From assembly GCA_964569925.1 (NCBI GenBank), contig CAZMWG010000001.1:1-51349 (forward strand): a DNA stretch of 51,349 nt, in the 5' to 3' direction. Below the pieces are notes generated by a model. The model saw only the letters and a program-made list of their open reading frames with translations, was not told the origin of the DNA and searched no databases. This DNA comes from an uncultured Halobacteriales archaeon (GTDB lineage: Archaea > Halobacteriota > Halobacteria > Halobacteriales > Haloarculaceae). Positions 5,482 to 42,877 of this stretch are shown here, piece by piece; within the stretch, counting starts at the first letter, position 1; each line of letters begins with the position of its first letter. The position numbers and the translations under genes are program-made.

Positions 5482-5560
5482 GGTGCTCGTGGCGGACCGA
5501 GTCCGCCGTCCCCCCATCCACGCGGTGGTGGATTGCGCTCCGTTGGTTGAAACGCTACTC

Positions 5561-5598
5561 GAATAAATCTTTGGAACCATTATCAGAAATATAGTTCG
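5561..5598 (-). promoter_or_regulatory. AT-rich island, candidate TATA/BRE promoter of the GH5 gene 3478..5481
   Basis: The minus strand reads cgaactatatttctgataatggttccaaagatttattc, in an otherwise ~70% GC context, 80-115 nt upstream of ATG 5481. Confidence 0.4.
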
Positions 5599-10171: not shown

Positions 10172-13100
10172 TCAGGACCGGTCGATCTCCTGGAACAGTT
10201 CCACGACGTCGTCCAGGTCGATCCGGTCGTTGCCGTTGAGGTCGTAGGCCGCGACGTTGTCGGTCAGGGTCGCCTCCTCGCGGTTCTGGTAGTAGGTGAC
10301 CACGTCGTCGTAGTCGACCCGGCCGTTGGCGTTGAGGTCCTCGTGGATCCCGTCGCCGTCGAGGTCTGCCGGCACCGTCCCGTCGATCGGCGGGAGGCTG
10401 GTCACGGAGACGTCGGCCTCGCCGCCCTCGACGGTGAAGCTCCCCCCGTCGTCGTCGTCGAACCGGGTCGGCTCGACCGTCAGGTCGACGTCGCCGGCCG
10501 ACCGACCCGCGAGTCGGACCGTCGCGAGGACGGCGTCCGCCGCGCCGTCCGTCACCGATCCGTCGGGCTCGTCGCTCTCACCGACATCGACCGCGCCCAG
10601 CGTGGCGGAGGCGCCGTCCGCCGCCACCGTCGACCGGGAGATGCTGAACGCGTCCGGATGGGAGACCTCCTCGACGGTCGCCACGGACGGGTCGGAGACC
10701 GTCAGCTCGGCCTCGTATCCCGAGAGGCCGTCGGGCGCGGCCGACAGCACCACCTGCGCGGTCGTCGTCCCGCCGGTCGGCACATCGTCGTCCGAGAGCG
10801 ACAGCGACAGGGTCGGCTCGTCGGCCTCGACGACCGGCAGACCGGTCACGCGCAGCGGCTCGTCCGCGGGCTCGTCGTCGGGCGTCAGGTAGCCGAGCGC
10901 CACGCCGGTGTACACCGCGCCGGCCTCGAAGGCCACGTCGTAGCTGGCCACCGCGCTCGATCCGCCGGCCGGCCGCACCTCCAGGGTGAGGTCGGCGGCC
11001 GGGACGGTCGTCGTCGCCACCTCGCCGAACTCCAGCCCCGACACCACCGGATCGCCGCCCGCGGGCGCGACGTCCACCGCGGGGGCGTCGGGCGAGGCGT
11101 GGAACAGCGTCACCCGGGCGCGCCCCCCCGGATCGGAGCGGTCGTCGACGGTGACGTCGAGTCCGAACGCCGTCTCGCCCGCCTCCTCGCTCAGCTCTCC
11201 CTCCGCGATCACCGTGTAGCTGGTGTCGGCCTCGACCGTGTAACCGCGCTCGATCACGGTCGTGTCGGGGTCGCCCGCCGGCGTGATCCGCACGGTCCGC
11301 TCGCCGGCCGGGACGATCAGGTAGTCGCTGACGGCGCCGAAGGGCACGTCCGCCAGGGCGACCGACCCGTCGACGCGGACGTCGACGTTCGGGGCGTCGG
11401 GCGAGGCGTGGATCACCCGCACGCCGGCCTCGCCCTCCGGTTCCTCGACGACCGGCAGGCCGGTCAGCCGGAACGGCTCGTCCGCGGGCTCGTCGCCCGG
11501 CGTCAGGTAGCCGAGCGCCAGCCCGGTGTACGTCTCGCCGGCCTCGAACGACAGATCGTACGTCCCGACCGGATCGCCGCCGGCGGCGGGCCGCACCTCC
11601 ACGGTCGCCTCCGTCGCGGGGACCGCCGTCGTCGCCGCGTCGCCGAAGGCCAGGTTCGAGACCAGCGTCGTCCCGCCGGCGGTGACGATGTCCACCGCGG
11701 GGGCGTCGGGCGAGGCGTGGAACAGCGTCACCCGGGCGCCCTCGGGCTCCGAGCGGTCGTCGGTCCGCAGGCCCACCTCGAAGCTCCCGGCACCGCTCCC
11801 CGTCGAGAGTTCGCCGCGGGCGATGGCGGTGTAGCTCGTCTCCGCGGCCACCGTCACCGTCCCCTCGAAGGCGACCGTGCTCGGGTCGCCGGCGGCGGTG
11901 ATCTCGACCGTCCGCTCGCCGGCCGGAACGGTCAGGTAGTCGCTGACGGCGCCGAAGGGCACGTCCGAGAGCACCGTCGACCCGTCGACGCTGACGTCCA
12001 CGTTCGGGGCGTCGGGCGAGGCGTGGATCACCCGCAGGGAGCCCTCGCCGTCGGGCTGGGTCACCCCGTCGCCGGCCTCGACGGGCGCCATCCCGTCGAC
12101 CTCCGCCAGCGCCATCACCAGCGGCGCGGTGTAGTCGATGGCCCACTCGTTGGTGGCGTACGAGCCCAGGTCGTCGTAGTAGCCCAGCCCCTCCGGCGTC
12201 CCGGGGTCGACGTGGTCGATCGTCGAGTCCCCGCCGTAGACGGCTTCGCCGCCGGCGTACAGGTCCGAGACGTGGGGTCCCCCGACGAGCATCCCCGGGA
12301 CGAGTAGCCCCTGGCTCTCGACGATCCGGTCGTGGGGGTCGTCGGGCGAGCGCTCCCCGTAGCCCGTGACGTAGGAGTAGTTCGTCGCCGACCGCCCCAG
12401 CACGTGGTGGAGCGGCTCCAGCAGCCAGTCGCCGTTCTGGTCGCCGATGTAGTCGTCGACCGCCAGGTCGACGCCGATCGAACACTGCGCCGCCCGCGAC
12501 ACCCCGGCGCCCGCACAGCCCCAGTAGTAGTCGTACAGCCCGGTGGTGTAGGCGTCCTGCGGGCGGTTCCAGTCGCCCGAGCGGTACCGCTGTGTGACGT
12601 ACACCCGCTTCTGCATCGCCGTCGCCGCGACGTCGGCGTCGGCGCCGTCCGTGTTCGCGTACGCGATGTGGCCAAGCGAGACCGGGTTGTCCCAGCCGAT
12701 CGGTCCCGCGGGGTACGTCCCCGACTCCCCCGGGAGCGGGATCTCGGACCCGCCGGCGTTCAGGTACGGCGGCAGTTCCTCCCGGATGTACTCGTCGTAC
12801 CGCTCGTCGCCGGTGGTCCGGAGCAGTTCCGCCGCCGCCCAGTACCGGTCGGGGGCGTCCTCCTGTGCCGCCTCGATCTCCGAGAGGGACTTGGGCAGGG
12901 GGTAAGGTTCGTCGACACGGCGGGCCCGCTCGACCTGCTGCTCGTAGGACTCACGCCAGTACGGCCCGGTCCCGGCGTTCTGCCCCTCCGACATCGCCCA
13001 CACCGTCTCCGGGTGTTCGATCAGGTACCCCCAGCCCGCCTCGGCGTTCTCGAGCATCTCGTCGGCGAACGCGGGGTCGTACTCCTCGAACACCCGCGCG

Positions 13101-14098: not shown

Positions 14099-14121
14099 AC
14101 GGTCGTTCCACGGACCGTGTT

Positions 14122-14141
14122 CTGAAATAATTTTCCGTAAG
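14122..14141 (-). promoter_or_regulatory. AT-rich box, candidate TATA element of the GH9 gene (near-leaderless spacing)
   Basis: The minus strand reads cttacggaaaattatttcag, centred about 32 nt upstream of ATG 14098. Confidence 0.45.
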
Positions 14142-14149
14142 AGACGGCG

Positions 14150-14167
14150 AAAAAAACCCGCCGGCGG
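14150..14167 (-). terminator. GC palindrome followed by a T7 run immediately after the mannanase-type gene stop
   Basis: The minus strand after TGA reads ccgccggcggg ttttttt. Oligo-T tracts are the usual archaeal termination signal. Confidence 0.5.
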
Positions 14168-15853
14168 TCAGTCCACGTCCTCGAACAGGTCGACCAGGTC
14201 GGTGTAGTCGATCCGGCCGTTGTCGTCGTAGTCGTAGGCCGCGACGTGGTCGGTCATGACCGGATCCTCCATCCGCTGGAAGTAGGTGACCACGTCGTCG
14301 TAGTCCGTTCGTCCGTTCCCGTTGAAGTCCTCGTAGTGGCCGTCGCCGTCGACGTCTCCCGGGACGGTCCCGTCGATCGGCGCGGGCCCGGCGTCGTCCT
14401 CCTCCGCCGGGGCGGTCGTCGCCGTCACGGTCGCGGCCGGCGACCGGCTCCCGCCCTCGGCGGTGGCCACGACGCCGATGCTGTAGTCGGTGTCCGGGTC
14501 GAGGTCGCCGACGGTCATCGACCGGACGCCCGCCGGGGCCGGGGCGCTCCGCGCCCCGATCTCGACGACGTGGCCCGCGACCGACCCGCTCGCCTCCCAG
14601 CGGACGGTCAGGCTCTCGGCCGTCCGGTCGACGACCCGCAGGTCCGACGGCGCCGCCGGGGTCGACCCGCCCGATCCCGGGTCGCCGTCGCCGCCGGACT
14701 TCTCGGCGGCGCGCTCGGTGTCGGCCTCGATCTCGGCGATCGTCGGCTCGTCGTCGAGGTGGACGGAGAAGCCGTCGTGGTTGCCACGCTTCTCCTGGAC
14801 GATCTCCCACAGCATCGCCGCGCTCGCGTCGCCCTCGTCCAGCGCGTCGTACCACGTCGCGTACGTCTCCGCGCGTTCGGGGTACTCGCCCGTGCCGCTC
14901 ACGTGGACGCCGAACTCCCCACAGTAGGCCGGCTTGCCCACCTCCTCGCGGGCGTCCCGGAGGTGCTCGCGGATCCACTCGGTCCCCCACTCGTGGGACT
15001 GGTTCCAGTGGTGGGGGTAGAGGTGGAACGTGCAGGCGTCGATCGTGTCGATCGCGTGCTGGTCGACGTACGCCGTCCCCTGTGAGCCGTCGTACGTCCA
15101 GCCGCTCTCGCCCTCCTTCCCGTCGTAGAACCCCTCCATCCCCGTCGAGACGAGGTGGTTCGAGTCGTACTCCTTGACGAGCGCCGACATCTCCTCGATC
15201 CACCCCGTCAGCGCCGCCACGCCGGCGTTCTCGACCCGGGGTTCGTTGGCGAGTTCCCACACCGCCACCGTCGGCTCCTCGCGGTACTCCCGCCCGGTGA
15301 GCGTGTTCTCCCGCGTCAGCACGTACTCGACGAACTCCCGGTACATCCGCCGGGTCTCGGCGTCCGTGTAGAAGTCGTCGTGGCTCGAGGCGGTGTCGGA
15401 CCACCGCACGTACTGGTCCATCCCGCCGTAGGCGCCCCAGTTGTCGGTGAACGGGATCACCAGCCTGATCCCGTGCTCGGCGGCCCGCTGGATCACGTAG
15501 TCGAAGTGTTCGAAGCCGGCCTCGTCGAACTCGCCCTTCGAGGGCTGCAGGCAGTGAGCGCCCCGCTGGCTGTTGCCCGAACACCACCCCCACGTCCGGA
15601 CGACGTCGAGGCCGACCCGCTCGGCCAACTCGAAGAACGCGTCGACCGCCCCCCGGTCGCGCCACGGGTCCTGTATCCAGAAGTTGTTCGTCCCGCTGAA
15701 GTAGCGGCGCTCGCCGTCGACGGTGAACTCCGTCCCGTCCCGCCGGACGAACGACGTCGGTCGCGCGGTCGCCGCCCCGGTCGCGCCGGCGCCGACGACC
15801 CCGGCGAGTCCCGCCGCCACGCCGCTTCTCAGCACGTCGCGTCGTGTGTGCAT
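14168..15853 (-). CDS. secreted GH5 beta-mannanase-type hydrolase - FN3 - dockerin-like module
   Basis: Tat motif TRRDVLRSG. FVRRDGTEFTVDGERRYFSGTNNFW and WELANEPR are typical of GH5 mannan endo-1,4-beta-mannosidases; nucleophile region is AYCGEFG. One FN3-like segment. C-terminus DVDGDGHYEDFNGNGRTDYDDVVTYF...YDYDDNGRIDYTDLVDLF. I preferred ATG 15853 over 15880 because the AT-rich box at 15887-15903 lies too close to 15880. Confidence 0.85.
   Translation of the reverse strand: MHTRRDVLRSGVAAGLAGVVGAGATGAATARPTSFVRRDGTEFTVDGERRYFSGTNNFWIQDPWRDRGAVDAFFELAERVGLDVVRTWGWCSGNSQRGAHCLQPSKGEFDEAGFEHFDYVIQRAAEHGIRLVIPFTDNWGAYGGMDQYVRWSDTASSHDDFYTDAETRRMYREFVEYVLTRENTLTGREYREEPTVAVWELANEPRVENAGVAALTGWIEEMSALVKEYDSNHLVSTGMEGFYDGKEGESGWTYDGSQGTAYVDQHAIDTIDACTFHLYPHHWNQSHEWGTEWIREHLRDAREEVGKPAYCGEFGVHVSGTGEYPERAETYATWYDALDEGDASAAMLWEIVQEKRGNHDGFSVHLDDEPTIAEIEADTERAAEKSGGDGDPGSGGSTPAAPSDLRVVDRTAESLTVRWEASGSVAGHVVEIGARSAPAPAGVRSMTVGDLDPDTDYSIGVVATAEGGSRSPAATVTATTAPAEEDDAGPAPIDGTVPGDVDGDGHYEDFNGNGRTDYDDVVTYFQRMEDPVMTDHVAAYDYDDNGRIDYTDLVDLFEDVD
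14171..14356 (-). repeat. dockerin-like module coding segment (copy 5 of 9)
   Basis: DVDGDGHYEDFNGNGRTDYDDVVTYFQRMEDPVMTDHVAAYDYDDNGRIDYTDLVDLFEDVD. Confidence 0.85.
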
Positions 15854-15886
15854 TCTCTGTCCCCCGACGATAGTTGCCATCTGAGA

Positions 15887-15903
15887 GTAGATAAAATAAA
15901 CTG
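15887..15903 (-). promoter_or_regulatory. AT-rich box, candidate TATA element of the mannanase-type gene
   Basis: The minus strand reads cagtttattttatctac, about 35-50 nt upstream of ATG 15853. Confidence 0.45.
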
Positions 15904-15961
15904 TCGGGGTGCGGATAGATGAGCCGGGATCACGTCCGACCCTCGCCCGTCGGTCGACCGA

Positions 15962-17707
15962 TCAGTTCGTCTCCCGGAAGAGATCGACCAGGTCGGTGTA
16001 GTCCAGGCGACCGTTGTCGTTGTAGTCGTAGGCGGCCGTGTGGTCGGTCATCGCCGGTTCCTCCATGTTCTGGAAGTAGGTGACCACGTCGTCGTAGTCC
16101 GTGTTCCCGTTGCCGTTGAGGTCCTCGTAGTAGCCGTCGCCGTCCGGGTCGGTCGGCGTCGCGCCGTCGATCGGACCCGGCGCGTCGGTCCCGCCCCCGC
16201 CGGTCCCCGTCGCGGTGACGGTGACCGTGGTGGTGCCGTCCGAGTCCTCCAGCGAGACCCGCTCCGTGACGATGCCGGCACCCGTCGAGACGGTGATCTC
16301 GTGTTCCCCGAGGAAGGCGCTGGTGGCGTAGGTGCCCGACGAGTCGGTCGTCCCGGACTCCTCGGTCCACCACTCGTCGTACACCAGCCCGGTCCAGACG
16401 TCGTAGCCGGGCTTCTTCTCGAAGTCACTGTCGAACAGCGGCGAGTGGGGCGGCGACCAGTGGAGGTCGTCCCAGAAGCCCCACATGAGGAACTGCTCGA
16501 CCGCGGGGTGGCTGAACGTCGTCTTCAGGAACTTCCGGAAGTACTCCGCCTTCGCCCGCTCGTCGAGCAACTGCTGGGAGCTCTGCGCGAAGTCGAACTC
16601 CGTGATCCGGATGCCGGTGTCGGGGACGGCCTCGGCGAAGTGGTTCAGATCGGCCATCAGCCGCTCCGGCGGGAGTCGCCGGTCCTCGCCGTTCGTGACC
16701 TTCATGTGGGACTGCATTCCCATCCCGGCGAGGTCGACGCCGCTGTCCTGGATGTGCTGTGCCCAGTTGGGGAACCAGGTCTTGGCGAAGTCGTACTCCG
16801 CGGTGAGCACGTTGAAGTCGTTGATCGCCAGCCCGACGTCGTCGGGCGCGACCTCGTCGGCCTTCTGGTACCAGTCGGCCATGATCGGCGACTTCCAGGG
16901 GACGACTTCTCCCTGCCAGAGCTTCTCCCGGTTGATCCGGTCGCCGTACACCCCGGTCTGGATCCAGTTGGCCCCGTCGTCTCCGGCCATCGCCTCGTTG
17001 ACGACCTCCCACTCCATGATGTCGTCGCCGTAGTGGGAGATGATGTCCTCGATGTGTTGCATCGACCGCTCCCGGATCGTCTCGGCGTCCCGGTCGTCGA
17101 TCGCCCGGTTGACGTCCTGCGGGATCGCGCCGACGTCACGGCGCCCCCAGATGCAGACGTGGCCCCGCACGTCGAAGCCGTTCTCCAGCAGCCGCTCCGT
17201 CGCCGCGTCCGCCCGCTCCTGGTCGCGCTCCCAGAACGCCCACTTGTGGGCGTTCTCCAGCACCGCGGTGTTGAACAGGTCGTTCGTGACCCGGCGGTAC
17301 TTGTCCCGGACCGCGTTCGACACCTGGTTGCCGTTCTTGTCCTCGCCCCGCACGTACATGTCGGCGTTGACGGCGGTCCCGAAGTGGAAGTCGTGTTCCT
17401 GCATCGAGACCGACACCTGCGCGTCCGGGATCGCCCGCCCGGACCCGTCCTCGACGACGACCTCCAGGTCGCCCATACGGTGGTCCTCGATGCGGCTGTC
17501 GGCGGCGGCCTCCCAGCCGCCGCCGTCGGACTGTGCCGCCGCCCGTCCGGTGGACATCCCCCGGACGAGGCCGGCGACCCCCAGCGCGCCCGTCGCGCGC
17601 AGCAGGTCCCGCCGGCCGACACGGCCGTCGACGACCCCAGCCGGCAGGTGGTCGGATCCGTCGTTCGATGTCTGTTCCTCGATCGTCGGGTCGGTGTCGC
17701 GTGTCAT
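15962..17707 (-). CDS. secreted GH10 xylanase-type hydrolase - small beta domain - dockerin-like module
   Basis: Tat motif GRRDLLRATG. GH10-like motifs LENAHKWAFWE, RGHVCIWG, WEVVNEAM (acid/base) and RITEFDF (nucleophile). C-terminus DPDGDGYYEDLNGNGNTDYDDVVTYF...YDYNDNGRLDYTDLVDLF. Confidence 0.85.
   Translation of the reverse strand: MTRDTDPTIEEQTSNDGSDHLPAGVVDGRVGRRDLLRATGALGVAGLVRGMSTGRAAAQSDGGGWEAAADSRIEDHRMGDLEVVVEDGSGRAIPDAQVSVSMQEHDFHFGTAVNADMYVRGEDKNGNQVSNAVRDKYRRVTNDLFNTAVLENAHKWAFWERDQERADAATERLLENGFDVRGHVCIWGRRDVGAIPQDVNRAIDDRDAETIRERSMQHIEDIISHYGDDIMEWEVVNEAMAGDDGANWIQTGVYGDRINREKLWQGEVVPWKSPIMADWYQKADEVAPDDVGLAINDFNVLTAEYDFAKTWFPNWAQHIQDSGVDLAGMGMQSHMKVTNGEDRRLPPERLMADLNHFAEAVPDTGIRITEFDFAQSSQQLLDERAKAEYFRKFLKTTFSHPAVEQFLMWGFWDDLHWSPPHSPLFDSDFEKKPGYDVWTGLVYDEWWTEESGTTDSSGTYATSAFLGEHEITVSTGAGIVTERVSLEDSDGTTTVTVTATGTGGGGTDAPGPIDGATPTDPDGDGYYEDLNGNGNTDYDDVVTYFQNMEEPAMTDHTAAYDYNDNGRLDYTDLVDLFRETN
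15965..16150 (-). repeat. dockerin-like module coding segment (copy 6 of 9)
   Basis: DPDGDGYYEDLNGNGNTDYDDVVTYFQNMEEPAMTDHTAAYDYNDNGRLDYTDLVDLFRETN. Confidence 0.85.
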
Positions 17708-17765
17708 CGTCGTGTTCCGTGTTGCGCTCCGCGCGTGCCGTCCGCTCTCTCGCCCCCGCGGGCGG

Positions 17766-19601
17766 TCAGTCCACGTCCTCGAACAGGTCGATCAGGTCGC
17801 CGTAGTCGACCCGACCGTTGTCGTTGTAGTCGTAGGCGGCCGCGTGGTCGGTCATCGTCGGCTCCTCCATGTGCCGGAAGTAGGTGACCACGTCGTCGTA
17901 GTCCACCTCGCCCGACCCGTTGAGGTCCTCGTAGTGGCCGTCGCCGTCGACGTCTCCCGGGACGGTCCCGTCGATCCGGGCGACCGTCGACGCCACCGAC
18001 AGGGTCGCGTCGGTCGTCGCCACCGCCATCTCGTCTCCCTCGTCGTCGTCGAGGCCCCGGACGGCGACGCTCACGTCGGTCTCGCCGGCCGACCGGCCCG
18101 CGAGGGTCACGGTCGCCAGCGGCACGTCCTGCGCGCCCGCCTGGACCGCCCGGGTGAGATCCGCCGTCTCGATGCTGGCCGACGCTCCCCCGACCTCGCC
18201 GTCCCCGTCGACGGCGTCGAGCCCCCCCGCGGGGTCGATCGACGCCACGGCCGCGACCGACGGGTCGGACACCCGGACGTCGAGCGCCGTCCCGGACACC
18301 CCCGCCGGCGCCTCGGACAGCACGACGGTCGCCGTCGTCTCGCCGCTCCGGTCGACCCCGTCGCTCGCCAGTTCGACCGCCACCGTCGACTCGTCGGCCT
18401 CGTCGCCGTCGGTGGCCGCGCCCGTCCGGGCGGCCGGGGACTCGTTGCCGGCACCGTCCACGGCCCGCACCGACACCCGGTAGCTCCGGCCGGCGGCCAG
18501 CCCGTCGACCGTCGCCCGGGTCCGGCCCGCCGGGACGGTCGTCTCCTCGCCGCCGGCCCGGACGACGTACCGCTCGACGCCGGTGCCGTCGTCCGTCGCG
18601 GCGTTCCACACCGCCTCGATCGACGACTCGGTGGCCGCGGGAACGCGCACGTTCGAGGGCGGCGTCGGTGCCGTCGCGTCCGGCGCCGCGCCGGCGCCCG
18701 ACTCCCCGCCGTCCGAGCCCCCGTCGACCTCGCTCTCGTAGGTCGTCCCGTTGACGGTGAGATCACACTGCCGGTAGGTGACCTCTCCCTGCGCGCCGGG
18801 CCAGTACTCGTTGCCCAACTCGATCCCGGTGAGCAGGAGGTCCTCGCGCACGCCGTGGCGTTCGGTCATGAACTCGATCACCTCCGCGAGGTCGACCGTT
18901 CCGGCGCTCATCCCGCCGCTCACGCGGAAGACGTGGAAGTCGGCGTCCGTCCCGCCGGTGATCGACTCCGCCCAGTAGTCGACCGTGTTGCCGAACCGGT
19001 CCGTCCAGACGTCCCGTTCGGCCGAACCGTGGCTGTGTCCGCCGCCCCAGTCCAGCAACAGCATGATCTCGTGGGTGATCGGCGGGCTCGACCCCGGTTC
19101 GCCGTCCAGCAGCCACCACTCCTCGGCCCAGTCCCACTCGCCGCCCGACACCGACAGGTCGGCGTCGACTTCCAGGACGAGTTCGTCGACGTCGCCCCGC
19201 CGGATCGGGAACTCGTCGGCCCCGCTGTGTCTCCCCCACGGCCGCGCACCGCAGAACACTTCGGGGTAGTTGATCTTGGGAGGCTCGTCGGGCCCCGACC
19301 GCGCGATCCCGGTGGCGTCGAACTCGTAGCCGAAACCGCCGTCGGCTCGCTCCCAGATACACTGCCGGGCCGGCTCCAGACTCCACTGGTTGTCCATCAG
19401 CGTCCACGTCTCGCCGACGTCGATGGTGCCACCCCCTGTGTCGCACTTCTCCGTGACCCGCTCGGCGGCCCCGAGACCGCTCGCGCCGAGTCCGAGCCCC
19501 GCGGCCCCTACGGCCGCGCCGGCGCGCAGGAACCGCCGTCGGGACGTTCCCCCCGACGCCGTGTCACCTGTCCGTTCCGTCCGTTCGTCGTCCTCTCTCA
19601 T
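17766..19601 (-). CDS. secreted GH12 endoglucanase-type hydrolase - FN3 - cohesin-like module - dockerin-like module
   Basis: Tat motif SRRRFLRAGAAVG. GH12-like pattern MDNQWS...HEIMLLLDW...GIELGNEYW. One FN3-like segment. Cohesin-like segment at about 17990-18390 (VAVELASDGVDRSGETTATVVLSEAPAGVSGTALDVRVSDPSVAAV...LATVTLAGRSAGETDVSVAVRGLDDDEGD). C-terminus DVDGDGHYEDLNGSGEVDYDDVVTYF...YDYNDNGRVDYGDLIDLF. Starts at ATG 19601. Confidence 0.8.
   Translation of the reverse strand: MREDDERTERTGDTASGGTSRRRFLRAGAAVGAAGLGLGASGLGAAERVTEKCDTGGGTIDVGETWTLMDNQWSLEPARQCIWERADGGFGYEFDATGIARSGPDEPPKINYPEVFCGARPWGRHSGADEFPIRRGDVDELVLEVDADLSVSGGEWDWAEEWWLLDGEPGSSPPITHEIMLLLDWGGGHSHGSAERDVWTDRFGNTVDYWAESITGGTDADFHVFRVSGGMSAGTVDLAEVIEFMTERHGVREDLLLTGIELGNEYWPGAQGEVTYRQCDLTVNGTTYESEVDGGSDGGESGAGAAPDATAPTPPSNVRVPAATESSIEAVWNAATDDGTGVERYVVRAGGEETTVPAGRTRATVDGLAAGRSYRVSVRAVDGAGNESPAARTGAATDGDEADESTVAVELASDGVDRSGETTATVVLSEAPAGVSGTALDVRVSDPSVAAVASIDPAGGLDAVDGDGEVGGASASIETADLTRAVQAGAQDVPLATVTLAGRSAGETDVSVAVRGLDDDEGDEMAVATTDATLSVASTVARIDGTVPGDVDGDGHYEDLNGSGEVDYDDVVTYFRHMEEPTMTDHAAAYDYNDNGRVDYGDLIDLFEDVD
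17769..17954 (-). repeat. dockerin-like module coding segment (copy 7 of 9)
   Basis: DVDGDGHYEDLNGSGEVDYDDVVTYFRHMEEPTMTDHAAAYDYNDNGRVDYGDLIDLFEDVD. Confidence 0.85.
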
Positions 19602-19651
19602 ACCTGAATCCCCCGTGTGCCGGTACGCGGTACTTGATTTCGCTTCCTCGC

Positions 19652-19688
19652 ACAAATATTATTCGATAAAAAACACGAAAGAATATGC
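19652..19688 (-). promoter_or_regulatory. AT-rich island: T-run terminator of the GH5 gene 19714..22203 plus candidate promoter of the GH12 gene
   Basis: The minus strand reads catattctttcgtgttttttatcgaataatatttgtg. It lies between the stop at 19714 and ATG 19601. Confidence 0.45.
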
Positions 19689-19713
19689 GCCGGACCGCGG
19701 CCGTCGTCGGCGG

Positions 19714-22203
19714 TTACTCGCTCGCTTCCTGGACTTCCTCGTACAGCGAGACGAGGTCGCTGAAGTCGATCCGGTCGTTGTCGTTGTAGTCGTAGGCGTC
19801 GACGTGGTCGGTCATCGCCGGCTCCTCCATGTAGTCGAAGTAGGTGACCACGTCGTCGTAGTCCAGGCTGCCGTTGCCGTTGAGGTCCTCGTAGTCGCCG
19901 TCGCCGTCCGGGTCCTCGGGGACCGCGCCGTCGATCTCGGTGAGGTCCGTCCCCTCCGGCGTGCCGACCGTCAGCATCGCCTCGGTCACCTGGACGTCGA
20001 TCGCCCCGGCGTTCCGGTCGTTCTCCATCCGCTGGACCGCCACGGCGACGCCGGTCTCGCCGGCTGACTGCCCGCGCAGCGTGACGCTACCGAGTTCGAC
20101 GTCGGTCGCGCCGGCCTGGACAGCCCCCCCCGAGTCGGCCGCCTCCAGCACGGCCGAGGAGCCGTCCGACGCAAGTTCGACCGGCCGAGTGAGCGAGTCG
20201 AGGTCGCCGTACATCCCGTTCTCGATGGTGGCGACGTCGGTGTCCTCGACGCTGACCTTGATCTTGTAGCCGCTCAGCCCGTTCGGCAGTTCGGACACCA
20301 TGATCGCCGCCCGGACCATCCCGCCGGGGGTCACCGTCTCGGTCTGTTGCTCGATCGACAGCGTCGGACCGCCGTCGCCGCCGGTCTCGCCGCCGTCGCC
20401 GCCCCCGCCGTCGTCGCCGCCCCCGCCGTCGTACGCGTCGGTGCTGGCCGACGCCATGACGGGGTCGGAGACGTTGCCGGCCTCGTCGACGGCCTGCAGC
20501 GTCATCTCGTAGTCGGTGTCCGGGTCGAGCCCCGACACCGTCGCCTCCGTTCCGGAGACGGTCTTCATCATCCCCTGGAACCCGATCTGGTAGCTGTCGA
20601 CGCCGCCGCCGACGTCGTCGGGGTCGGTGCTCGGCGACCACGACAGCGAGACGCTCGTCGCCGTCGTCCCGGTGACCGAGACGTTCGACGGCGCCGTCGG
20701 CGGCGTCCGGTCCTGCCGCGGGGTCGGGTTCCCGCCACCGCCGCCGGTGTCCTCACACTCGGACTCGGCGACCGGAAGGTCCTGGTCGGCCCGGGCCGCC
20801 AGGAACTCCTTGTACCAGCGGGCGTGGAACTCCTCGTAGGGCTGGAGGGTCTCGAAGTTCTGCCCCTGGAAGAACGCCGGCGACCAGGTGTGATCGAAAC
20901 ACCAGGCCCCCGGGTGGACATCGTAGTTGTTGAAGAACTGCTCGTACTCCGGGGCCTCCGTCTCGGTCGTGCCGTCGATGAACCCGAAGTCGTTGGCGCC
21001 CCCGCCCTCGGCCCAGCCGAACTCGTTGAAGAAGACGGGCGCCTGCTCGGCCGCCGGCCCGTAGTAGTCGCCCATCGGCGAGAGCGTGTCGTGGGTGTAC
21101 CGGTGGCCGTTGTAACACATGTTCGTGATGTCGCTGTAGGTCGACCCCACGTCCATGAGTTCCATCTCGCTGGCCCAGTAGGTGTACTGGCTCCAGCGGG
21201 GCGACCCCAGCGTCTTCACGCTGCCCGGCGCGTTCTCCTCGACGATCTTCACCCACGGCGCGGCCCGTTCGAGCCACAGCCGCCAGTAGGGCTTGGCCCG
21301 CTCGGAGAGGACGTCCGTGTCGTTGCCGGCCTCGTCGCCGCCGCCCGCCGGCGGCTCGTCCGGATGCCCCCAGTCGCCCGCGTACGGGCCCGTCGGCTCG
21401 TTGAAGACGTCGAAGATGATGTGGGGCTCGTCGGCGTACCGGTCCGCGACCGTCTCCCAGAACATCGTCAGCTCCGAGTCCAGTTCCTCGGCGTGGGTCT
21501 CGTACCAGGCGTCGTCGGGCGACCCCTCGAGGCCCTGGATCTCCGAGACCTGGTCCGCGCCGTGCCACAGCACGCCGCGCTCGCCACACATCCCCTGGTC
21601 GTACTGGAAGGTCTCGTTCTGACAGCGAGGCCACTGGCTCACCTCGTCGGCGTACTGGGGCTGGTGGAAGATGGGGAAGTGTCGGTGGTAGTCCAGCATC
21701 AGGTAGACGCCCCGCTCCTTGGACATCTCCACCAGCGGGTCGACGAACCGCTCCAGATACCGGGTCAGCTCCGACTCGTCGAACGACCCCGGCAGGATCG
21801 GTCCCCAGTTGTCCTGGTGTTTCATGTTCGTCGTCCGACCCGCCACCTCGGCGCTGATGTCCTGGGGCTGCATCGGCAGCCGCAGGTACGTGTTCGCCCA
21901 CTCCTCGCTCGTGGCCATCTCCAGCATCTCCTCGGCGGTCGCCCCGCGCCAGTTGCGCTGGGCCCGCGACGGGTCGATCAGGTTTACCCCCCGGAGGATA
22001 ACCTGGTTCCCGCAGGGGTCGACGAGCTCGTTCCCCTCGCGCTCGAGCTGGGGCGTCGGGATCCCGTCGGCGGCCGACGAGGCCGCGTTCCCGACGACCG
22101 ACGAGCCCAGCGCCAGCCCGGCGGTCGCCGCGCTGACCCCCTTCAGCACCGTCCGCCGTGTGGTCGTGTTCTGTGCCGTCCCGTGACTGTGTTCGTCCGT
22201 CAT
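19714..22203 (-). CDS. secreted GH5 endoglucanase-type hydrolase - FN3 - cohesin-like module - dockerin-like module
   Basis: Tat motif TRRTVLKGVSAATAG. GH5 motifs IIFDVFNEP and VFFNEFGW. One FN3-like segment. Cohesin-like segment at about 19965-20370 (LSIEQQTETVTPGGMVRAAIMVSELPNGLSGYKIKVSVEDTDVATI...LGSVTLRGQSAGETGVAVAVQRMENDRN). C-terminus DPDGDGDYEDLNGNGSLDYDDVVTYF...YDYNDNDRIDFSDLVSLY. Starts at ATG 22203. Confidence 0.9.
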   Translation of the reverse strand: MTDEHSHGTAQNTTTRRTVLKGVSAATAGLALGSSVVGNAASSAADGIPTPQLEREGNELVDPCGNQVILRGVNLIDPSRAQRNWRGATAEEMLEMATSEEWANTYLRLPMQPQDISAEVAGRTTNMKHQDNWGPILPGSFDESELTRYLERFVDPLVEMSKERGVYLMLDYHRHFPIFHQPQYADEVSQWPRCQNETFQYDQGMCGERGVLWHGADQVSEIQGLEGSPDDAWYETHAEELDSELTMFWETVADRYADEPHIIFDVFNEPTGPYAGDWGHPDEPPAGGGDEAGNDTDVLSERAKPYWRLWLERAAPWVKIVEENAPGSVKTLGSPRWSQYTYWASEMELMDVGSTYSDITNMCYNGHRYTHDTLSPMGDYYGPAAEQAPVFFNEFGWAEGGGANDFGFIDGTTETEAPEYEQFFNNYDVHPGAWCFDHTWSPAFFQGQNFETLQPYEEFHARWYKEFLAARADQDLPVAESECEDTGGGGGNPTPRQDRTPPTAPSNVSVTGTTATSVSLSWSPSTDPDDVGGGVDSYQIGFQGMMKTVSGTEATVSGLDPDTDYEMTLQAVDEAGNVSDPVMASASTDAYDGGGGDDGGGGDGGETGGDGGPTLSIEQQTETVTPGGMVRAAIMVSELPNGLSGYKIKVSVEDTDVATIENGMYGDLDSLTRPVELASDGSSAVLEAADSGGAVQAGATDVELGSVTLRGQSAGETGVAVAVQRMENDRNAGAIDVQVTEAMLTVGTPEGTDLTEIDGAVPEDPDGDGDYEDLNGNGSLDYDDVVTYFDYMEEPAMTDHVDAYDYNDNDRIDFSDLVSLYEEVQEASE
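19717..19914 (-). repeat. dockerin-like module coding segment (copy 8 of 9)
   Basis: DPDGDGDYEDLNGNGSLDYDDVVTYFDYMEEPAMTDHVDAYDYNDNDRIDFSDLVSLYEEVQEASE. Confidence 0.85.
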
Positions 22204-22331
22204 CGTGTGTTCGTGTGGACTGTCCGACCGGTCGGACCCCCCTCCCGGTCCGCGCGTCCTCGCGCTCGTTCGTCGCACTGTACCCCCCACCGGACCCGAG
22301 CCACGACGGCCCGGGTCCGACGCCTCCGGAC

Positions 22332-25300
22332 CTACCCCGACATCTCCTCGAACAGCGAGACCACGTCGGCCAGATCCAGGCCGCCGTTGCCGTTGAAGTC
22401 GTAGGCCTCCGGGTGGGACGTGATCGCCTCGTCGTCGCGCTCGTAGTAGTACTGGATCACGTCCGTGAACTCCACCTCCCCGTTGGCGTTGAGGTCCTCG
22501 TACAGCCCGTCGTCGTCGATGTCCTGGGGCGTGATCCCGTTGATCGGCGAGACGCCGCCGGTGTCCGTCTCCTCGGTCACCGACAGGACCGCGGTCACGT
22601 CGCCGACCGACATCGGGTTGCCGTCGTCGTCGTCGAACTTGCCCGTCGACAACACGAGCTCCGTGCTGCCGGTCGACTCGGCGTCGAGCGTGACCGTCGC
22701 CAGCGTCACGTCGGCGGCGCCGGGCTGGACCTCCTGGCCGAGGTCGGTCCCGTTCATCGACACCGAGCCGCCGTCGTCGGCCACGCTCGCGCCGCCGATC
22801 ATCCCCCCGCTGCCGAAGGCGCTGGTGACGCCCGCGTCCGTGATCGTCGCCACCGCCGGGTCGGCGACCTCGAGGGTGGCGTTGAACCCGGAGATGCCCG
22901 TCGGCGCCGACGGCAACAGGATCGTCGCCTCGACGGTCCCGCCGGGCGCGGCCTCGGCGGGCGACAGCGCTAGGTCGACGCCCTCGCCGTCGACGCCGCC
23001 GCCGACCGTCCCGTCGTCGTCGCCGGGCTCGCCGTCGTCGGAGCCGTCGTCGGCGTCGTCCTCGTCACCGCCGGAGTCGCCCCCGACGACGAGGGTCGTC
23101 GTCGTCTCCCCCGGCGACGTCAGCCCGCCGTCGTCGTCGGTGAGCCGGTCGACCGACAGCGAGAGGTCGACGTCGCCCTCGCTCTCGCCGGCCAGCGTGA
23201 CCGTCGCCAGCGTGACGTCCGTGGCGCCGGGCTGGACCGCTCCGCCGAAGTCGATGCCCGTCGCCGTCATCGAACCCTCGCCCACGTCGGCGCCGCCGGC
23301 CGGCCCCTGGAACCTCTCGAGCAGCCCGCCGTCCGCGATCGTCGCGATCGACGTGTCCGAGACCTCGAACGCGAGGTCGAAGCCGGCCACCCCCTCCGGG
23401 GCGGCGCCCAGCACCAGTTCCGCGTCGACGGTCCCGCCGGCGGGGACGTCGTCGGCCTCGAGGTCGACCGAGAGGTCGCCGTCGCCGGCGTCGTCCTCGT
23501 CGTCGGAGCCGTCGCCCGTGCCGTCGCCGGCGTCGCCCTCGCCGCCCTCCGTCTCGACGGAGAGCGGGGCGCTCGCGCTCGTCGACATCCGGCTCCCGTC
23601 GCCCATGTCGACGTTCGCCTCGACGGAGACGTCCGCCTCGCCGGCGGCCTCGCCGACGAGGGTCACCGTCCCCAGGTCGACGTCCACGGCGTCCGGCTGG
23701 ACGGCGTTGTTGACGTCGCCGCCACGCAGCGTCGCCGTGGCGCCGTCGCCGCTCACGGTCGCCGAAGTCGGCTGGAACGACCCCGGGATCGTCGCCGAGT
23801 CGACGGTGACGACGTCCGTGTCGCTCACGGTCAGGTCGAGGTAGAAGCCGGTCATGTTCCCGGCCATCGACGGGAGTGTGATCGTCGCCGCGACCTCCTC
23901 GCCCGGCGCGACCGTGTCCGAGGCCAAGTCCAGCGAGACGCCCGAACCGTCCCCGGTCCCGTCGTCGCCGCCGCCGGCGTCGTCCTCACCCTCGTCGCCG
24001 GCGCCGCCGTCACCGACGACGAGCGTCGACGAGCCGCTCGCCGACGCCTGGCTCCCGTCGGCCAGGTCCATACTGCCCGCCGCGGACACCGACGCTTCGC
24101 CCTCGCCCTCGACGGTCATGGTGACCGTCGCCAGCGTGACGTCCGTGGCGCCGGCGGGGACGTCGTCGTTGACGTCGCCGCCGCGGAAGGAGGCGAAGGC
24201 ACCGCCGTCGGCGACGGAACTCTCGGCGAACCGGAACCAGTCGGCGGTCTCGATCCCGGTGATCGTCGCCACCGACGTGTCGTCGATCGAGACCTCGACG
24301 TCGAAGCCGGTCGGGTTCCCGGCGATCGACGGGAGGACGACCGTCGCCTCCACCTCGTCGCCGGGTTCGGCACCCGACGGGAGGTCGACGACGAGTCCGT
24401 CGCTCGCGGTGCCGTCCTCCCCGTCGTCGGAGCCGTCGTCGCCGGAACCGTCGTCGACGCCGCCGTCACCGACGACGATCGTCGACGAGCCGCTCGCCGA
24501 GACCCGACCGCCGTCGGCCAGGTCCATGCCACCGGTCGCCGTCAGGGAAGCTTCCCCCTCGCCCTCGACGGCCAGCGTGACCGTCGCGAGCGGCACGTCG
24601 GTGGCGCCGGCGGGGACGTCGTCGTTGACGTCGCCGCCGCGGAAGGAGGCGGAACCCCCGTTGTCGGCGACGGAACTCTCGGCGAACCGGAACCAGTCGG
24701 CGGTCTCGATCCCGGTGATCGTCGCCACCGACGTGTCGTCGATCGAGACCTCGACGTCGAAGCCGGTCGGGTCCCCGGCGATCGACGGGAGGGTGATCGT
24801 CGCCTCCACCTCGTCGCCGGGCTCGGCTCCGGACGGCAGCCCGACCGCCAGCCCGTCGCTCGCGGTGCCGTCCTCCCCGTCGCCGGCGCCGCCGTCACCG
24901 ACGACGATCGTCGACGAGCCGCTCGCCGACGCCTGGCTCCCGTCGGCCAGGTCCATACTGCCCGCCGCGGACACCGACGCTTCGCCCTCGCCCTCGACGG
25001 TCATGGTGACCGTCGCCAGCGTGACGTCCGTGGCGCCGGCGGGGACGTCGTCGTTGACGTCGCCGCCGCGGAAGGAGGCGAAGGCACCGCCGTCGGCGAC
25101 GGAACTCTCGGCGAACCGGAACCAGTCGGCGGTCTCGATCCCGGTGATCGTCGCCACCGACGTGTCGTCGATCGAGACCTCGACGTCGAAGCCGGTCGGG
25201 TTCCCGGCGATCGACGGGAGGACGACCGTCGCCTCCACCTCGTCGCCGGGTTCTGCACTCGACGGGAGGTCGACGACGAGCCCGTCGCTCGCGGTGCCGT

Positions 25301-26687: not shown

Positions 26688-26746
26688 TCTTCCCCCCCAG
26701 CGTGCGTCTCCGCACTGAGGTACCCACATCGTTCGTGGTGTCCATA

Positions 26747-26783
26747 CCATAAAAAAATAGCGGTAGATAGTGAAATATAATCG
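26747..26783 (-). promoter_or_regulatory. AT-rich island: T7 run downstream of the anchor gene plus candidate promoter of the scaffoldin gene
   Basis: The minus strand reads gattatatttcactatctaccgctatttttttatgg, 60-95 nt upstream of ATG 26687. Confidence 0.45.
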
Positions 26784-42641: not shown

Positions 42642-42877
42642 GGGACGGCGGCCCGACGAGGGCGGCGATACGCTCGTCGTACCCGGACAGGTCGGCGCGG
42701 AAAGCCCGCGTTGTCCGGGTTCACGCGACGAGGTAACTCGGCTCCGTGTACCGTTCGCATACGTTTCGTACTTCTGACTGTTATCGACGGTAAGTCGGAA
42801 AATCGGGGGTACTGGGGTCTTACTCCGGTGGACGGTCGTATCGGTTTTTGGCAGTTACGTGTCAACCGACGGTCGCA

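What the first reader, a model, noticed from the sequence alone, without database searches (positions are those of the whole stretch)
10175..22523. Two dockerin sequence classes that differ at the positions which set specificity in bacterial dockerins
I aligned the nine modules by eye. In seven enzymes, positions 10-11 after each calcium loop are YD in repeat 1 (RVDYDDVVTYF) and YT, YG or FS in repeat 2 (RIDYTDLIDLF). The scaffoldin dockerin has FT (EVEFTDVIQYY) and LA (GLDLADVVSLF). The GH9 dockerin is a hybrid, with YD in repeat 1 and LD in repeat 2 (RIDLDDVVELF), and it also shares the LNANG loop and the YY motif with the scaffoldin. In clostridial dockerins these positions are the main cohesin-recognition determinants. 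By analogy, the scaffoldin, and possibly GH9, may be directed to a different cohesin than the other enzymes.
Basis: inference. Interest (0 to 1): 0.7.

Follow-up and report, generated by a model that had tools for sequence, protein, structure and literature searches.

The report
Two dockerin classes, haloarchaeal cellulosome cluster
A salt-loving archaeon carries a bacterial-style cellulosome gene cluster, and the scaffold protein's docking module differs from those of the enzymes on the exposed face of one helix, which suggests (but does not prove) that it plugs into a separate membrane-anchored receptor.

Summary
Three of the nine lie outside the stated coordinates.

Seven enzyme dockerins form a tight group (63-81% identical). 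The scaffoldin dockerin is the outlier (40-52%). GH9 is intermediate.

I found syntenic clusters in Halomicrobium salinisoli and H. urmianum. Across the 17 dockerins of the three genomes:
- The scaffoldin dockerins form a clade with 98% bootstrap support.
- They have seven strictly class-specific columns, all in repeat 1, at loop/helix positions 9, 10, 11, 14, 15, 18 and 19. This is the exposed half of helix 1.
- Repeat 2 is barely discriminating.
- The L at repeat-2 position 10 of GH9 is not conserved.

On the cohesin side, a small membrane-anchored protein encoded directly upstream of the scaffoldin in all three genomes carries a separate cohesin class. The cohesin fold is supported by AlphaFold2 plus Foldseek.

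The best reading is a two-tier system like clostridial type I/type II: enzymes bind the scaffoldin, and the scaffoldin binds the anchor. No binding was or could be tested.

I found no published description of a haloarchaeal cellulosome. I rate this a new variant of a known kind.

The parts
22338..22523 (-). Scaffoldin dockerin (class 2). Repeat-1 loop and helix read DLNANGEVEFTDVIQYYYE; repeat 2 reads DFNGNGGLDLADVVSLFEE.
   Evidence: It is 40-52% identical to the other eight dockerins and 70% identical to the H. salinisoli scaffoldin dockerin.
10181..10366 (-). GH9 dockerin, intermediate between the classes. Repeat 1 is enzyme-like (DYD); repeat 2 has L at position 10 (IDLDDVVELF).
   Evidence: It is 56-61% identical to the seven enzyme dockerins and 52% to the scaffoldin dockerin. 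It groups with the scaffoldin clade at only 63% bootstrap.
3481..3666 (-). GH5a dockerin (enzyme class, YD / YT). Outside the finding's stated range.
5749..5934 (-). GH5b dockerin (enzyme class, YD / YT). Outside the stated range. It is the only one of the nine above the Pfam Dockerin_1 gathering score.
   Evidence: 24.7 bits against a cut-off of 22.9
7643..7828 (-). GH5c dockerin (enzyme class, YD / YT). Outside the stated range.
14171..14356 (-). GH5d dockerin (enzyme class, YD / YT)
15965..16150 (-). GH10 dockerin (enzyme class, YD / YT)
17769..17954 (-). Dockerin of the GH12-like enzyme (enzyme class, YD / YG)
   Evidence: The orthologue in H. salinisoli carries a Pfam GH12 hit.
19729..19914 (-). 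GH5e dockerin (enzyme class, YD / FS)
26817..27470 (-). Candidate anchor protein (217 aa): signal peptide, one cohesin (window 26955-27380), a Gly/Ser-rich linker and a C-terminal hydrophobic helix. Its gene lies directly upstream of the scaffoldin gene.
   Evidence: AlphaFold2 gave pLDDT 84.9. The top 21 Foldseek PDB hits are all cohesins, with TM-scores of 0.65-0.75. Separate cohesin clade. No PGF-CTERM HMM hit.
22332..26750 (-). Scaffoldin (1472 aa): Tat signal, an N-terminal module also found on haloarchaeal GH5 enzymes, FN3, seven cohesins and the C-terminal dockerin. The cohesins are at 25323-25739, 24885-25286, 24456-24857, 24000-24401, 23526-23939, 23070-23480 and 22575-22982.
10391..10813 (-). 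Enzyme-borne cohesin of GH9, immediately before its dockerin
17967..18389 (-). Enzyme-borne cohesin of the GH12-like enzyme
19945..20364 (-). Enzyme-borne cohesin of GH5e

Best explanation
The cluster encodes a two-tier cohesin-dockerin assembly in a haloarchaeon.

Proposed mechanism:
- The eight glycoside hydrolases carry 'enzyme-class' dockerins. In repeat 1 they have D9-Y10-[D/S]11 ... V14, and in repeat 2 they have Y/F at position 10. These dock onto the seven scaffoldin cohesins, and probably also onto the related cohesins carried by GH9, GH12 and GH5e.
- The scaffoldin's own dockerin is a second specificity class. Its signature is written on the exposed face of helix 1 (E9-F10-T11, I14, Q/K15, Y18, E/Q19), plus L10 in repeat 2.
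- This second class docks onto the divergent single cohesin of the small membrane-anchored protein encoded directly upstream, which tethers the whole complex to the cell surface.

What is shown: the two dockerin classes, their conservation across genomes, the location of the signature, the two cohesin classes, the cohesin fold, and the conserved anchor-scaffoldin gene adjacency.

What is inferred: that these modules bind each other at all, that the classes differ in specificity, and which cohesin is the partner of which dockerin. The apparent hybrid nature of GH9 is most likely a lineage-specific substitution rather than a third specificity.
For: Dockerin classes:
- Nine dockerins align without gaps. 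The scaffoldin dockerin is 40-52% identical to the rest, against 63-81% within the seven-enzyme group.
- Syntenic clusters exist in H. salinisoli (L015) and H. urmianum (L067), with gene order anchor, scaffoldin, GH5e, GH5a and so on.
- Their scaffoldin dockerins keep VEFTDVI(K)F(Y/D)Y and (I/L)DLDDVVSLF.
- The scaffoldin-dockerin clade has bootstrap 0.98.
- Seven strictly class-specific columns all lie at repeat-1 positions 9, 10, 11, 14, 15, 18 and 19. This is the highest count among all 680 possible triples, and the clustering has P about 5e-5.
- The buried positions 12, 13, 16 and 17 do not separate the classes (position 13 is fully invariant), so the signature occupies the solvent-exposed half of helix 1 (read directly from the alignment).

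Cohesin side:
- The modules are cohesins. The profile of all 11 hits Ruminococcus flavefaciens cohesins in the PDB at E = 3e-4 over their full length. The AlphaFold2 model has pLDDT 84.9. The top 21 Foldseek hits are all cohesins, including the Archaeoglobus fulgidus cohesin 2xdh.
- The anchor cohesins of the three genomes form their own clade. They are 23-36% identical to every scaffoldin or enzyme-borne cohesin.

Analogy and established knowledge:
- Elsewhere in haloarchaea, a protein ending in cohesin plus dockerin sits next to a gene for cohesin plus PGF-CTERM (PhoX loci L017-L019; Halogeometricum borinquense pHBOR02). This fits the idea that neighbouring genes encode cognate pairs.
- Positions 10 and 11 of each dockerin repeat are specificity determinants in bacterial dockerins (PMC8063739).
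Against: - No binding data exist. The single-sequence AlphaFold2 run of an anchor-cohesin/scaffoldin-dockerin fusion was uninformative (pLDDT 48).
- The comparators amount to only two independent lineages: the window organism, and two closely related Halomicrobium species.
- The class-specific positions are also the positions that vary most among archaeal dockerins in general. Surface drift after an old duplication could therefore produce part of the pattern.
- Repeat 2 of the scaffoldin dockerin is nearly the same as repeat 2 of several Halomicrobium enzyme dockerins (IDLDDVV against IDFDDVV). If helix 3 mediates binding, the classes could overlap in specificity.
- The 12 anchor-specific cohesin columns are scattered rather than concentrated on strands 8-3-6-5.
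- In Clostridium thermocellum, single-cohesin surface proteins such as OlpA and OlpC bind enzyme dockerins (titles of PDB entries 3ul4 and 4dh2). The anchor here could do the same.
- The H. salinisoli scaffoldin reading frame is broken twice.
Confidence: 0.5

Rival explanations
1. There is one promiscuous specificity. All nine dockerins bind all eleven cohesins. The scaffoldin dockerin is simply an older paralogue whose surface has drifted, and scaffoldins can then chain onto each other and onto enzymes to form networks.
For: - The discriminating columns coincide with columns that are highly variable among archaeal dockerins in general.
- Repeat 2 is almost shared between the classes.
- Anchor-specific cohesin columns are not concentrated on a recognisable binding face.
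- Enzymes that carry both a cohesin and a dockerin already imply daisy-chaining.
Against: - The scaffoldin-specific residues are conserved between the window and Halomicrobium (E, F, T, I and Y are invariant), while the corresponding enzyme-class residues are invariant too (D, Y, V in 14 of 14).
- 70% identity between orthologues, against 42-55% to paralogues, argues for constraint rather than drift.
- A separate anchor cohesin clade exists.
Confidence: 0.22
2. There are two specificities, but with different partners. The anchor cohesin tethers individual enzymes directly, as OlpA and OlpC do in C. thermocellum. The scaffoldin dockerin targets the enzyme-borne cohesins, or a cohesin encoded elsewhere in the genome such as a PGF-CTERM cohesin protein.
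For: - H. urmianum has a second stand-alone cohesin with PGF-CTERM far from the cluster (P0038).
- In the cohesin tree this protein groups with the anchor clade.
- Cohesin types are reversed in Pseudobacteroides cellulosolvens (PMC8063739), so architecture alone does not fix the pairing.
Against: - The anchor and scaffoldin genes are adjacent in all three genomes.
- Enzyme-borne cohesins group with scaffoldin cohesins, not as a separate class.
Confidence: 0.15
3. GH9 carries a genuine third, hybrid specificity that lets it dock either on the scaffoldin or directly on the anchor.
For: - In the window, GH9 shares L at repeat-2 position 10, LNANG, Y at column 26 and R at column 29 with the scaffoldin dockerin.
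- It joins the scaffoldin clade in 63% of bootstraps.
Against: - H. salinisoli GH9 has F at that position and LNGNG.
- Its repeat 1 is fully enzyme-class at all seven signature columns.
- There is no DNA signature of exchange with the scaffoldin dockerin (70-75% identity).
Confidence: 0.12
4. The modules are not an assembly system. The 'dockerins' are calcium-binding or substrate-binding tails, as proposed for haloarchaeal glycosidases, and the beta-sandwich modules are Ig-like spacers.
For: - Published haloarchaeal genome papers describe the dockerin as taking part in substrate binding (PMC10963439; PMC13260240).
- The Pfam Cohesin model does not reach its gathering score on any of the 11 modules, and Dockerin_1 reaches it on only one of nine.
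Against: - The fold search returns almost only cohesins, many of them solved in complex with dockerins.
- The PDB profile match is to cohesins.
- Seven tandem cohesins on a non-catalytic protein, with a dockerin on every enzyme of the cluster, is the defining cellulosome layout.
Confidence: 0.05

Closest known systems
Clostridium (Acetivibrio) thermocellum cellulosome: type I enzyme dockerins on CipA cohesins, and the CipA type II X-dockerin on SdbA/OlpB/Orf2p anchors
   Same: - A non-catalytic scaffoldin with tandem cohesins and a substrate-binding-like module.
- A dockerin on every enzyme.
- A divergent scaffoldin dockerin.
- A separate cell-surface protein with a divergent cohesin.
- The class difference includes positions 10-11 of a dockerin repeat.
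   Different: - The host is an archaeon and an extreme halophile.
- There is no X module before the scaffoldin dockerin (a 17-residue linker follows cohesin 7).
- The anchor has no SLH domains and carries a C-terminal transmembrane helix instead.
- Every dockerin has an extra N-terminal DxDGDGxYE motif overlapping loop 1.
- The enzyme class has aromatic Y at position 10 rather than Ser-Thr.
- The class signature is on helix 1 only, not on both repeats.
Archaeoglobus fulgidus non-cellulosomal cohesin and dockerin (PDB 2xdh), and the cohesin/dockerin proteins of ANME and methanogenic archaea
   Same: - These are archaeal cohesin and dockerin modules.
- The predicted anchor cohesin matches 2xdh (TM-score 0.70).
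- The same DxDGDG plus two-repeat dockerin is common on PKD-repeat proteins of Methanoregulaceae.
   Different: Those systems are not linked to glycoside hydrolases. They also lack a multi-cohesin scaffoldin with a dedicated anchor.
Haloarchaeal two-gene modules: an enzyme ending in cohesin plus dockerin, next to a cohesin-PGF-CTERM protein (PhoX loci L017-L019; Halogeometricum borinquense pHBOR02 HBOR_RS16020/16015). These are uncharacterised.
   Same: - They use the same module families.
- They have the same cohesin-then-dockerin tail as GH9, GH12 and GH5e here.
- The anchor gene lies next to the gene for the dockerin-bearing protein.
   Different: - They have a single enzyme and no scaffoldin.
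- The anchor uses PGF-CTERM, whereas the window's anchor has no PGF-CTERM HMM match.
Acetivibrio cellulolyticus ScaA and Pseudobacteroides cellulosolvens (an enzyme-bearing scaffoldin; reversed cohesin types)
   Same: - Proteins that combine a catalytic module with cohesin and dockerin.
- Multi-tier assembly in which dockerin classes do not cross-react (PMC8063739).
   Different: They are bacterial and anaerobic, and they anchor through SLH domains. The enzyme-borne cohesins here are single modules placed directly before the dockerin.

Membership tests
Dockerin (Pfam PF00404 Dockerin_1) | Two tandem segments of about 22 residues, each a 12-residue EF-hand-like loop with D/N at positions 1, 3, 5, 9 and 12, followed by a helix | tested here: met
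   All nine modules have DxNxNGxxDxxD-type loops at columns 10-21 and 42-53, with D/N at 1, 3, 5 and 12. At position 9 the scaffoldin has E in repeat 1.
Dockerin (Pfam PF00404 Dockerin_1) | Score above the curated Pfam gathering threshold | tested here: inconclusive
   One of nine passes (24.7 against 22.9 bits). Five score 16.9-21.5 bits. Three, including GH9 and the scaffoldin, have no hit at E <= 0.01.
Dockerin (Pfam PF00404 Dockerin_1) | Calcium-dependent folding and binding to a cohesin | not testable with these tools
   This needs protein biochemistry at high salt.
Cohesin (Pfam PF00963) | Nine-stranded beta jelly-roll of about 140 residues that resembles solved cohesins | tested here: met
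   The AlphaFold2 model of the anchor module has pLDDT 84.9 and pTM 0.77, with nine main strands plus a short extra strand at residues 10-12. The top 21 Foldseek PDB hits are all cohesins, at E 1.5e-7 to 7.5e-6 and TM-scores 0.65-0.75.
Cohesin (Pfam PF00963) | Sequence-profile match to known cohesins | tested here: inconclusive
   The Pfam Cohesin model matches only 2 of 11 modules, with best E = 0.0028, below the gathering score. The profile of the 11 modules does hit R. flavefaciens cohesins 5m2o and 5aoz at E = 3e-4 over their full length. A homologue in H. urmianum is named a cohesin domain-containing protein by NCBI.
Cellulosome (scaffoldin-based multi-enzyme complex) | A non-catalytic scaffoldin with several cohesins, plus several dockerin-bearing glycoside hydrolases | tested here: met
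   The scaffoldin has 7 cohesins. GH5 x5, GH9, GH10 and a GH12-like enzyme each carry a dockerin.
Cellulosome (scaffoldin-based multi-enzyme complex) | Demonstrated assembly of the enzymes on the scaffoldin | not testable with these tools
   No experimental data were found, and no paper in the library describes a haloarchaeal cellulosome.
Type II (X-dockerin) anchoring dockerin of C. thermocellum CipA | An X module immediately upstream that forms an X-Doc unit | tested here: not met
   Cohesin 7 ends near residue 1392 and the dockerin starts at 1410. Only a 17-residue linker lies between them. The module is therefore a functional analogue at most, not a member.
Type II (X-dockerin) anchoring dockerin of C. 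thermocellum CipA | No cross-reaction with the cohesins that bind the enzyme dockerins | not testable with these tools
   This is inferred only from sequence classes.
PGF-CTERM / archaeosortase-anchored surface protein | A C-terminal PGF motif, transmembrane helix and basic tail that match TIGR04126 | tested here: not met
   The window anchor has no NCBIfam hit at E <= 10, whereas related cohesin proteins P0038 and P0040 do hit PGF_CTERM. The window protein ends in ...GTPGLVATMAIATVLLGVVVLAGVGLREIL.

The most novel reading that the evidence does not exclude
This is part of the first cellulosome outside anaerobic bacteria and fungi: an aerobic, extremely halophilic archaeal complex. It would have independently evolved a two-tier cohesin-dockerin code, with the anchoring specificity written on the exposed face of helix 1 of the scaffoldin dockerin (positions 9-11, 14-15, 18-19). 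That dockerin would bind in a single orientation to a transmembrane-anchored cohesin, and the pair would work at saturating salt.
Probability: 0.4. Interest if true: 0.8.

Novelty: new variant of a known kind. Interest (0 to 1): 0.62.

Why it matters
If the two classes really have separate partners, haloarchaea build a hierarchical, cell-attached cellulosome. That design is so far known only from anaerobic Firmicutes and gut fungi. A 2025 cellulosome review does not mention archaea at all, and the 2023 comparative study of cellulolytic haloarchaea does not mention cohesins or dockerins.

It would explain how cellulolytic haloarchaea attack insoluble cellulose. It would also provide two orthogonal cohesin-dockerin pairs that are active in multimolar salt, which are useful parts for designer cellulosomes in ionic-liquid or brine processing.

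The short list of seven signature positions makes the specificity question directly testable by mutagenesis.

Tried and rejected
- **Pfam and NCBIfam scans** of the nine proteins and the 11 modules gave no cohesin call above threshold. I therefore had to establish the fold by structure prediction.
- **Homology search with the whole scaffoldin** was swamped by FN3 and by the N-terminal module.
- **The genome scan with GH9** mostly hit DUF4397 repeats. It returned only one true GH9 relative, from a Halococcoides MAG (L001), which has a dockerin (FP / LQ) but no cohesin.
- **The metagenome scan with scaffoldin-type dockerins** returned only distant archaeal dockerins (52% identity or less), because the DxDGDGLY pattern is too common.
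- **AlphaFold2 of an anchor-cohesin / linker / scaffoldin-dockerin fusion**, run without an alignment, gave pLDDT 48 and pTM 0.40. It says nothing about pairing.
- **Concerted evolution of enzyme dockerins within each species** was considered, but bootstrap support is only 0.14-0.21, so I do not claim it.
- **The scaffoldin type as the ancestral haloarchaeal dockerin** was considered. Identities to general haloarchaeal dockerins are 37-58% for both classes, so there is no signal.
- **Gene conversion between the GH9 and scaffoldin dockerins** was considered. DNA identity is 70-75%, which is not above background.
- **Mapping anchor-specific cohesin columns onto the 8-3-6-5 binding sheet** gave scattered positions and is inconclusive.
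- **Exact look-ups** of the window scaffoldin, P0166 and P0315 found no contig.

Full report
**Setting**

The window has 68-78% G+C. It carries a row of ten minus-strand genes whose products have Tat or Sec signals and are very acidic. In transcription order (descending window coordinates) they are:
- a 217-aa protein, 26817-27470
- a 1472-aa non-catalytic protein, 22332-26750
- GH5e, 19714-22290
- a GH12-like enzyme, 17766-19655
- GH10, 15962-17707
- GH5d, 14168-15880
- GH9, 10172-14098
- GH5c, 7640-10048
- GH5b, 5746-7467
- GH5a, 3478-5580

The closest syntenic clusters are in Halomicrobium salinisoli and H. urmianum, with about 50% identity for the enzymes. The source is therefore a haloarchaeon of that neighbourhood.

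**The observation**

A motif search and a six-frame HMM scan find exactly nine dockerins, one at the C-terminus of each enzyme and one on the large non-catalytic protein. They align over 62 residues without gaps. Each starts with a DxDGDGxYE motif that overlaps the first calcium loop. The two 12-residue loops occupy columns 10-21 and 42-53.

Counting from the first Asp of each loop, positions 10-11 read as follows:

| Dockerin(s) | Repeat 1 | Repeat 2 |
|---|---|---|
| Five enzymes (GH5a-d, GH10) | YD | YT |
| GH12-like | YD | YG |
| GH5e | YD | FS |
| GH9 | YD | LD |
| Scaffoldin | FT | LA |

Two corrections apply: three of the nine dockerins lie outside the stated range, and positions 10-11 are inside the loop motif rather than after it.

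Pairwise identity separates the groups:
- the seven enzymes: 63-81% among themselves
- GH9: 56-61% to those seven and 52% to the scaffoldin
- the scaffoldin dockerin: 40-52% to all others

**Are the partner modules cohesins?**

Pfam and NCBIfam do not call them. The eleven beta-rich modules of about 140 residues are clearly homologous to one another. There are seven in the large protein, one each in GH9, GH12 and GH5e, and one in the 217-aa protein.

- Their joint profile hits Ruminococcus flavefaciens cohesins in the PDB over their full length (E = 3e-4).
- An AlphaFold2 model of the 217-aa protein's module is confident (pLDDT 84.9).
- Its top 21 Foldseek matches in the PDB are all cohesins, with TM-scores of 0.65-0.75, and include the Archaeoglobus fulgidus cohesin.
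- A full HMM scan of 1.84 billion representative proteins finds 1906 members of this cohesin family, many with several copies.

The large protein is therefore a scaffoldin. The 217-aa protein is a candidate anchor made of a signal peptide, one cohesin, a Gly/Ser linker and a C-terminal hydrophobic helix. It does not match the PGF-CTERM model, unlike related single-cohesin proteins of other haloarchaea.

**Is the class difference more than noise?**

H. salinisoli (L015) and H. urmianum (L067) have the same gene order: anchor, scaffoldin, GH5e-like, GH5a-like, and in H. salinisoli also GH9 and GH12.

Their scaffoldin dockerins read ...NGQVEFTDVIKF(Y/D)YQR...NG(R)(I/L)DLDDVVSLF. Their enzyme dockerins read ...DY(D/S)D(V/I)V... 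and ...D(Y/F)(D/A)D....

Across the 17 dockerins of the three genomes:
- The three scaffoldin dockerins form a clade with bootstrap 0.98.
- The window scaffoldin dockerin is 70% identical to its H. salinisoli orthologue. This is the same level as orthologous enzyme dockerins (60-72%), so it is under comparable constraint.
- Seven columns are strictly class-specific: 18, 19, 20, 23, 24, 27 and 28. The scaffoldin residues are E, F, T, I, Q/K, Y and E/Q. The enzyme residues are D, Y, D/S and V, followed by three variable positions.
- No other triple among the 680 possible has more than four such columns, and 620 have none.
- All seven fall within eleven consecutive columns (P about 5e-5 among 45 variable columns).

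These columns are loop/helix positions 9, 10, 11, 14, 15, 18 and 19 of repeat 1. At 100 degrees per residue, positions 10, 11, 14, 15, 18 and 19 cover one half of helix 1. The other half holds the calcium ligand at position 12 and the hydrophobic positions 13, 16 and 17. None of these four columns separates the classes (position 13 is fully invariant).

It is wider than 10-11, however.

Repeat 2 behaves differently. Only position 10 is a near-signature (L against Y/F), and position 11 overlaps between the classes.

**GH9**

In the window, the GH9 dockerin shares L at repeat-2 position 10, LNANG, Y at column 26 and R at column 29 with the scaffoldin dockerin. It joins that clade in 63% of bootstraps.

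Several points weigh against a special role:
- Its repeat 1 is enzyme-class at all seven signature columns.
- The H. salinisoli GH9 dockerin has F at repeat-2 position 10 and LNGNG.
- LNANG is absent from the Halomicrobium scaffoldin dockerins.
- DNA identity gives no sign of exchange with the scaffoldin dockerin (70-75%).

I treat the hybrid appearance as lineage-specific.

**The cohesin side**

The anchor cohesins of the three genomes form their own clade. They are 41% identical between the window and H. salinisoli, and 23-36% identical to every scaffoldin or enzyme-borne cohesin. The enzyme-borne cohesins group with scaffoldin cohesins.

So there are two dockerin classes and two cohesin classes. 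The gene for the odd cohesin sits next to the gene for the odd dockerin in all three genomes.

Elsewhere in haloarchaea a simpler version recurs. An enzyme ending in cohesin plus dockerin is followed by a gene for cohesin plus PGF-CTERM. Examples are the PhoX loci L017-L019 and Halogeometricum borinquense pHBOR02. This fits the idea that neighbouring genes encode partners.

**Mechanism proposed**

Enzyme-class dockerins load the enzymes onto the scaffoldin cohesins, and probably onto the related enzyme-borne cohesins. The scaffoldin-class dockerin plugs the loaded scaffoldin into the membrane-anchored cohesin.

This is the logic of the clostridial type I/type II split, where positions 10 and 11 of the repeats are accepted specificity determinants (PMC8063739). 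It is not membership of the type II family. There is no X module, no SLH anchor, and the sequence signature is different.

Every binding step is inferred. My only attempt at a predicted complex, a fusion run without an alignment, failed (pLDDT 48).

Weaknesses:
- There are only two independent lineages.
- The signature positions are also the most variable ones in archaeal dockerins generally.
- Anchor-specific cohesin residues are scattered.
- Repeat 2 is almost shared between the classes.
- Single-cohesin surface proteins in C. thermocellum bind enzyme dockerins (PDB titles).
- The H. salinisoli scaffoldin frame is broken twice.

**What is known**

The dockerin type with DxDGDG plus two repeats is common in Euryarchaeota, for example on PKD-repeat proteins of Methanoregulaceae. 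Archaeal cohesin-dockerin pairs are known from A. fulgidus and are noted in ANME genomes.

For haloarchaea I found:
- The 2023 comparative genomics paper on cellulolytic haloarchaea never mentions cohesin or dockerin, and calls the mechanism almost unknown (PMC10267330).
- Two later papers note a type I dockerin on haloarchaeal glycosidases and ascribe substrate binding to it (PMC10963439; PMC13260240).
- A 2025 cellulosome review has no occurrence of 'archaea'.
- Searches combining cellulosome, scaffoldin or cohesin with haloarchaeal terms found nothing else.

The library is limited to open-access papers, so I cannot exclude prior description elsewhere.

**Verdict**

Noticed in passing
window 3478-27470 (minus strand): The whole gene row has the layout of a complete cellulosome in a haloarchaeon: an anchor, a scaffoldin with 7 cohesins, and eight dockerin-bearing glycoside hydrolases (GH5 x5, GH9, GH10, GH12-like). 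I found no published description. Orthologous clusters exist in Halomicrobium salinisoli (CP084466.1) and H. urmianum (CP084090.1).
   Followed up: partly
window 10391-10813, 17967-18389, 19945-20364; L015; L017 9560-9934; L068 3950-4606: GH9, GH12 and GH5e each carry a cohesin directly before their dockerin, and this is conserved in Halomicrobium. The same cohesin-dockerin tail occurs on unrelated haloarchaeal enzymes (PhoX, a DUF4350 protein, a 5'-nucleotidase). In the PhoX loci (L017-L019) and the H. borinquense DUF4350 locus (L068) a cohesin-PGF-CTERM gene lies next to it. This looks like a general, uncharacterised haloarchaeal surface-display or daisy-chain device.
   Followed up: partly
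window 24000-24401 versus 24885-25286 (also 24456-24857): Scaffoldin cohesins 2 and 4 are 99% identical in protein, and cohesin 3 is 84% identical to both. This points to a recent tandem duplication inside the scaffoldin. Cohesins 1-5 form a subgroup distinct from cohesins 6-7, which resemble the enzyme-borne and Halomicrobium cohesins.
   Followed up: partly
window 11000-12200 (GH9 residues about 665-1090); also ORF 42848-43717 (+): The GH9 carries four DUF4397 repeats (Pfam E = 1.8e-74) between the catalytic domain and the cohesin. These are absent from the GH9 of H. salinisoli (864 aa) and of a Halococcoides MAG (742 aa). A separate secreted protein with a DUF4397-like sequence (not scanned against Pfam) is encoded at 42848-43717.
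   Followed up: no
window 26050-26530 (scaffoldin residues about 75-225): The N-terminal scaffoldin module (LLVNDYDGDPAWP...IDEMRFA) is homologous to C-terminal modules of GH5 cellulases from Halorhabdus and from metagenomes (P0002, P0003, P0006). It is probably an undescribed or newly described carbohydrate-binding module.
   Followed up: no
L015 9131-10210 (H. salinisoli CP084466.1): The H. salinisoli scaffoldin reading frame is interrupted twice, inside cohesin 6 and just before the dockerin, so the dockerin is annotated as a separate 69-aa protein (P0047). This is either a sequencing error or a pseudogene. The H. urmianum orthologue (WP_225333374.1) is intact.
   Followed up: no
window 7643-7735 versus 14171-14263: The second halves of the GH5c and GH5d dockerin coding regions are 94-98% identical in DNA, well above the 73-87% typical among enzyme dockerins. 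This suggests local gene conversion or a recent duplication.
   Followed up: no
all nine dockerins, just upstream of column 1 (e.g. window 22524-22550): A conserved pre-dockerin motif P-(I/M)-(D/N)-G-x-x-P-x-D precedes the DxDGDG motif in eight of the nine proteins (GH5a differs). Together with DxDGDGxYE it forms an N-terminal extension that is not part of the Pfam dockerin model.
   Followed up: no
P0167 (WP_276252472.1, Halomontanus rarus / Halovivax sp. TS33): This protein is a GH5 cellulase fused to eight cohesins and a C-terminal copy of the scaffoldin-type N-terminal module, with no dockerin. It is an enzyme-scaffoldin hybrid in a different haloarchaeal family.
   Followed up: no
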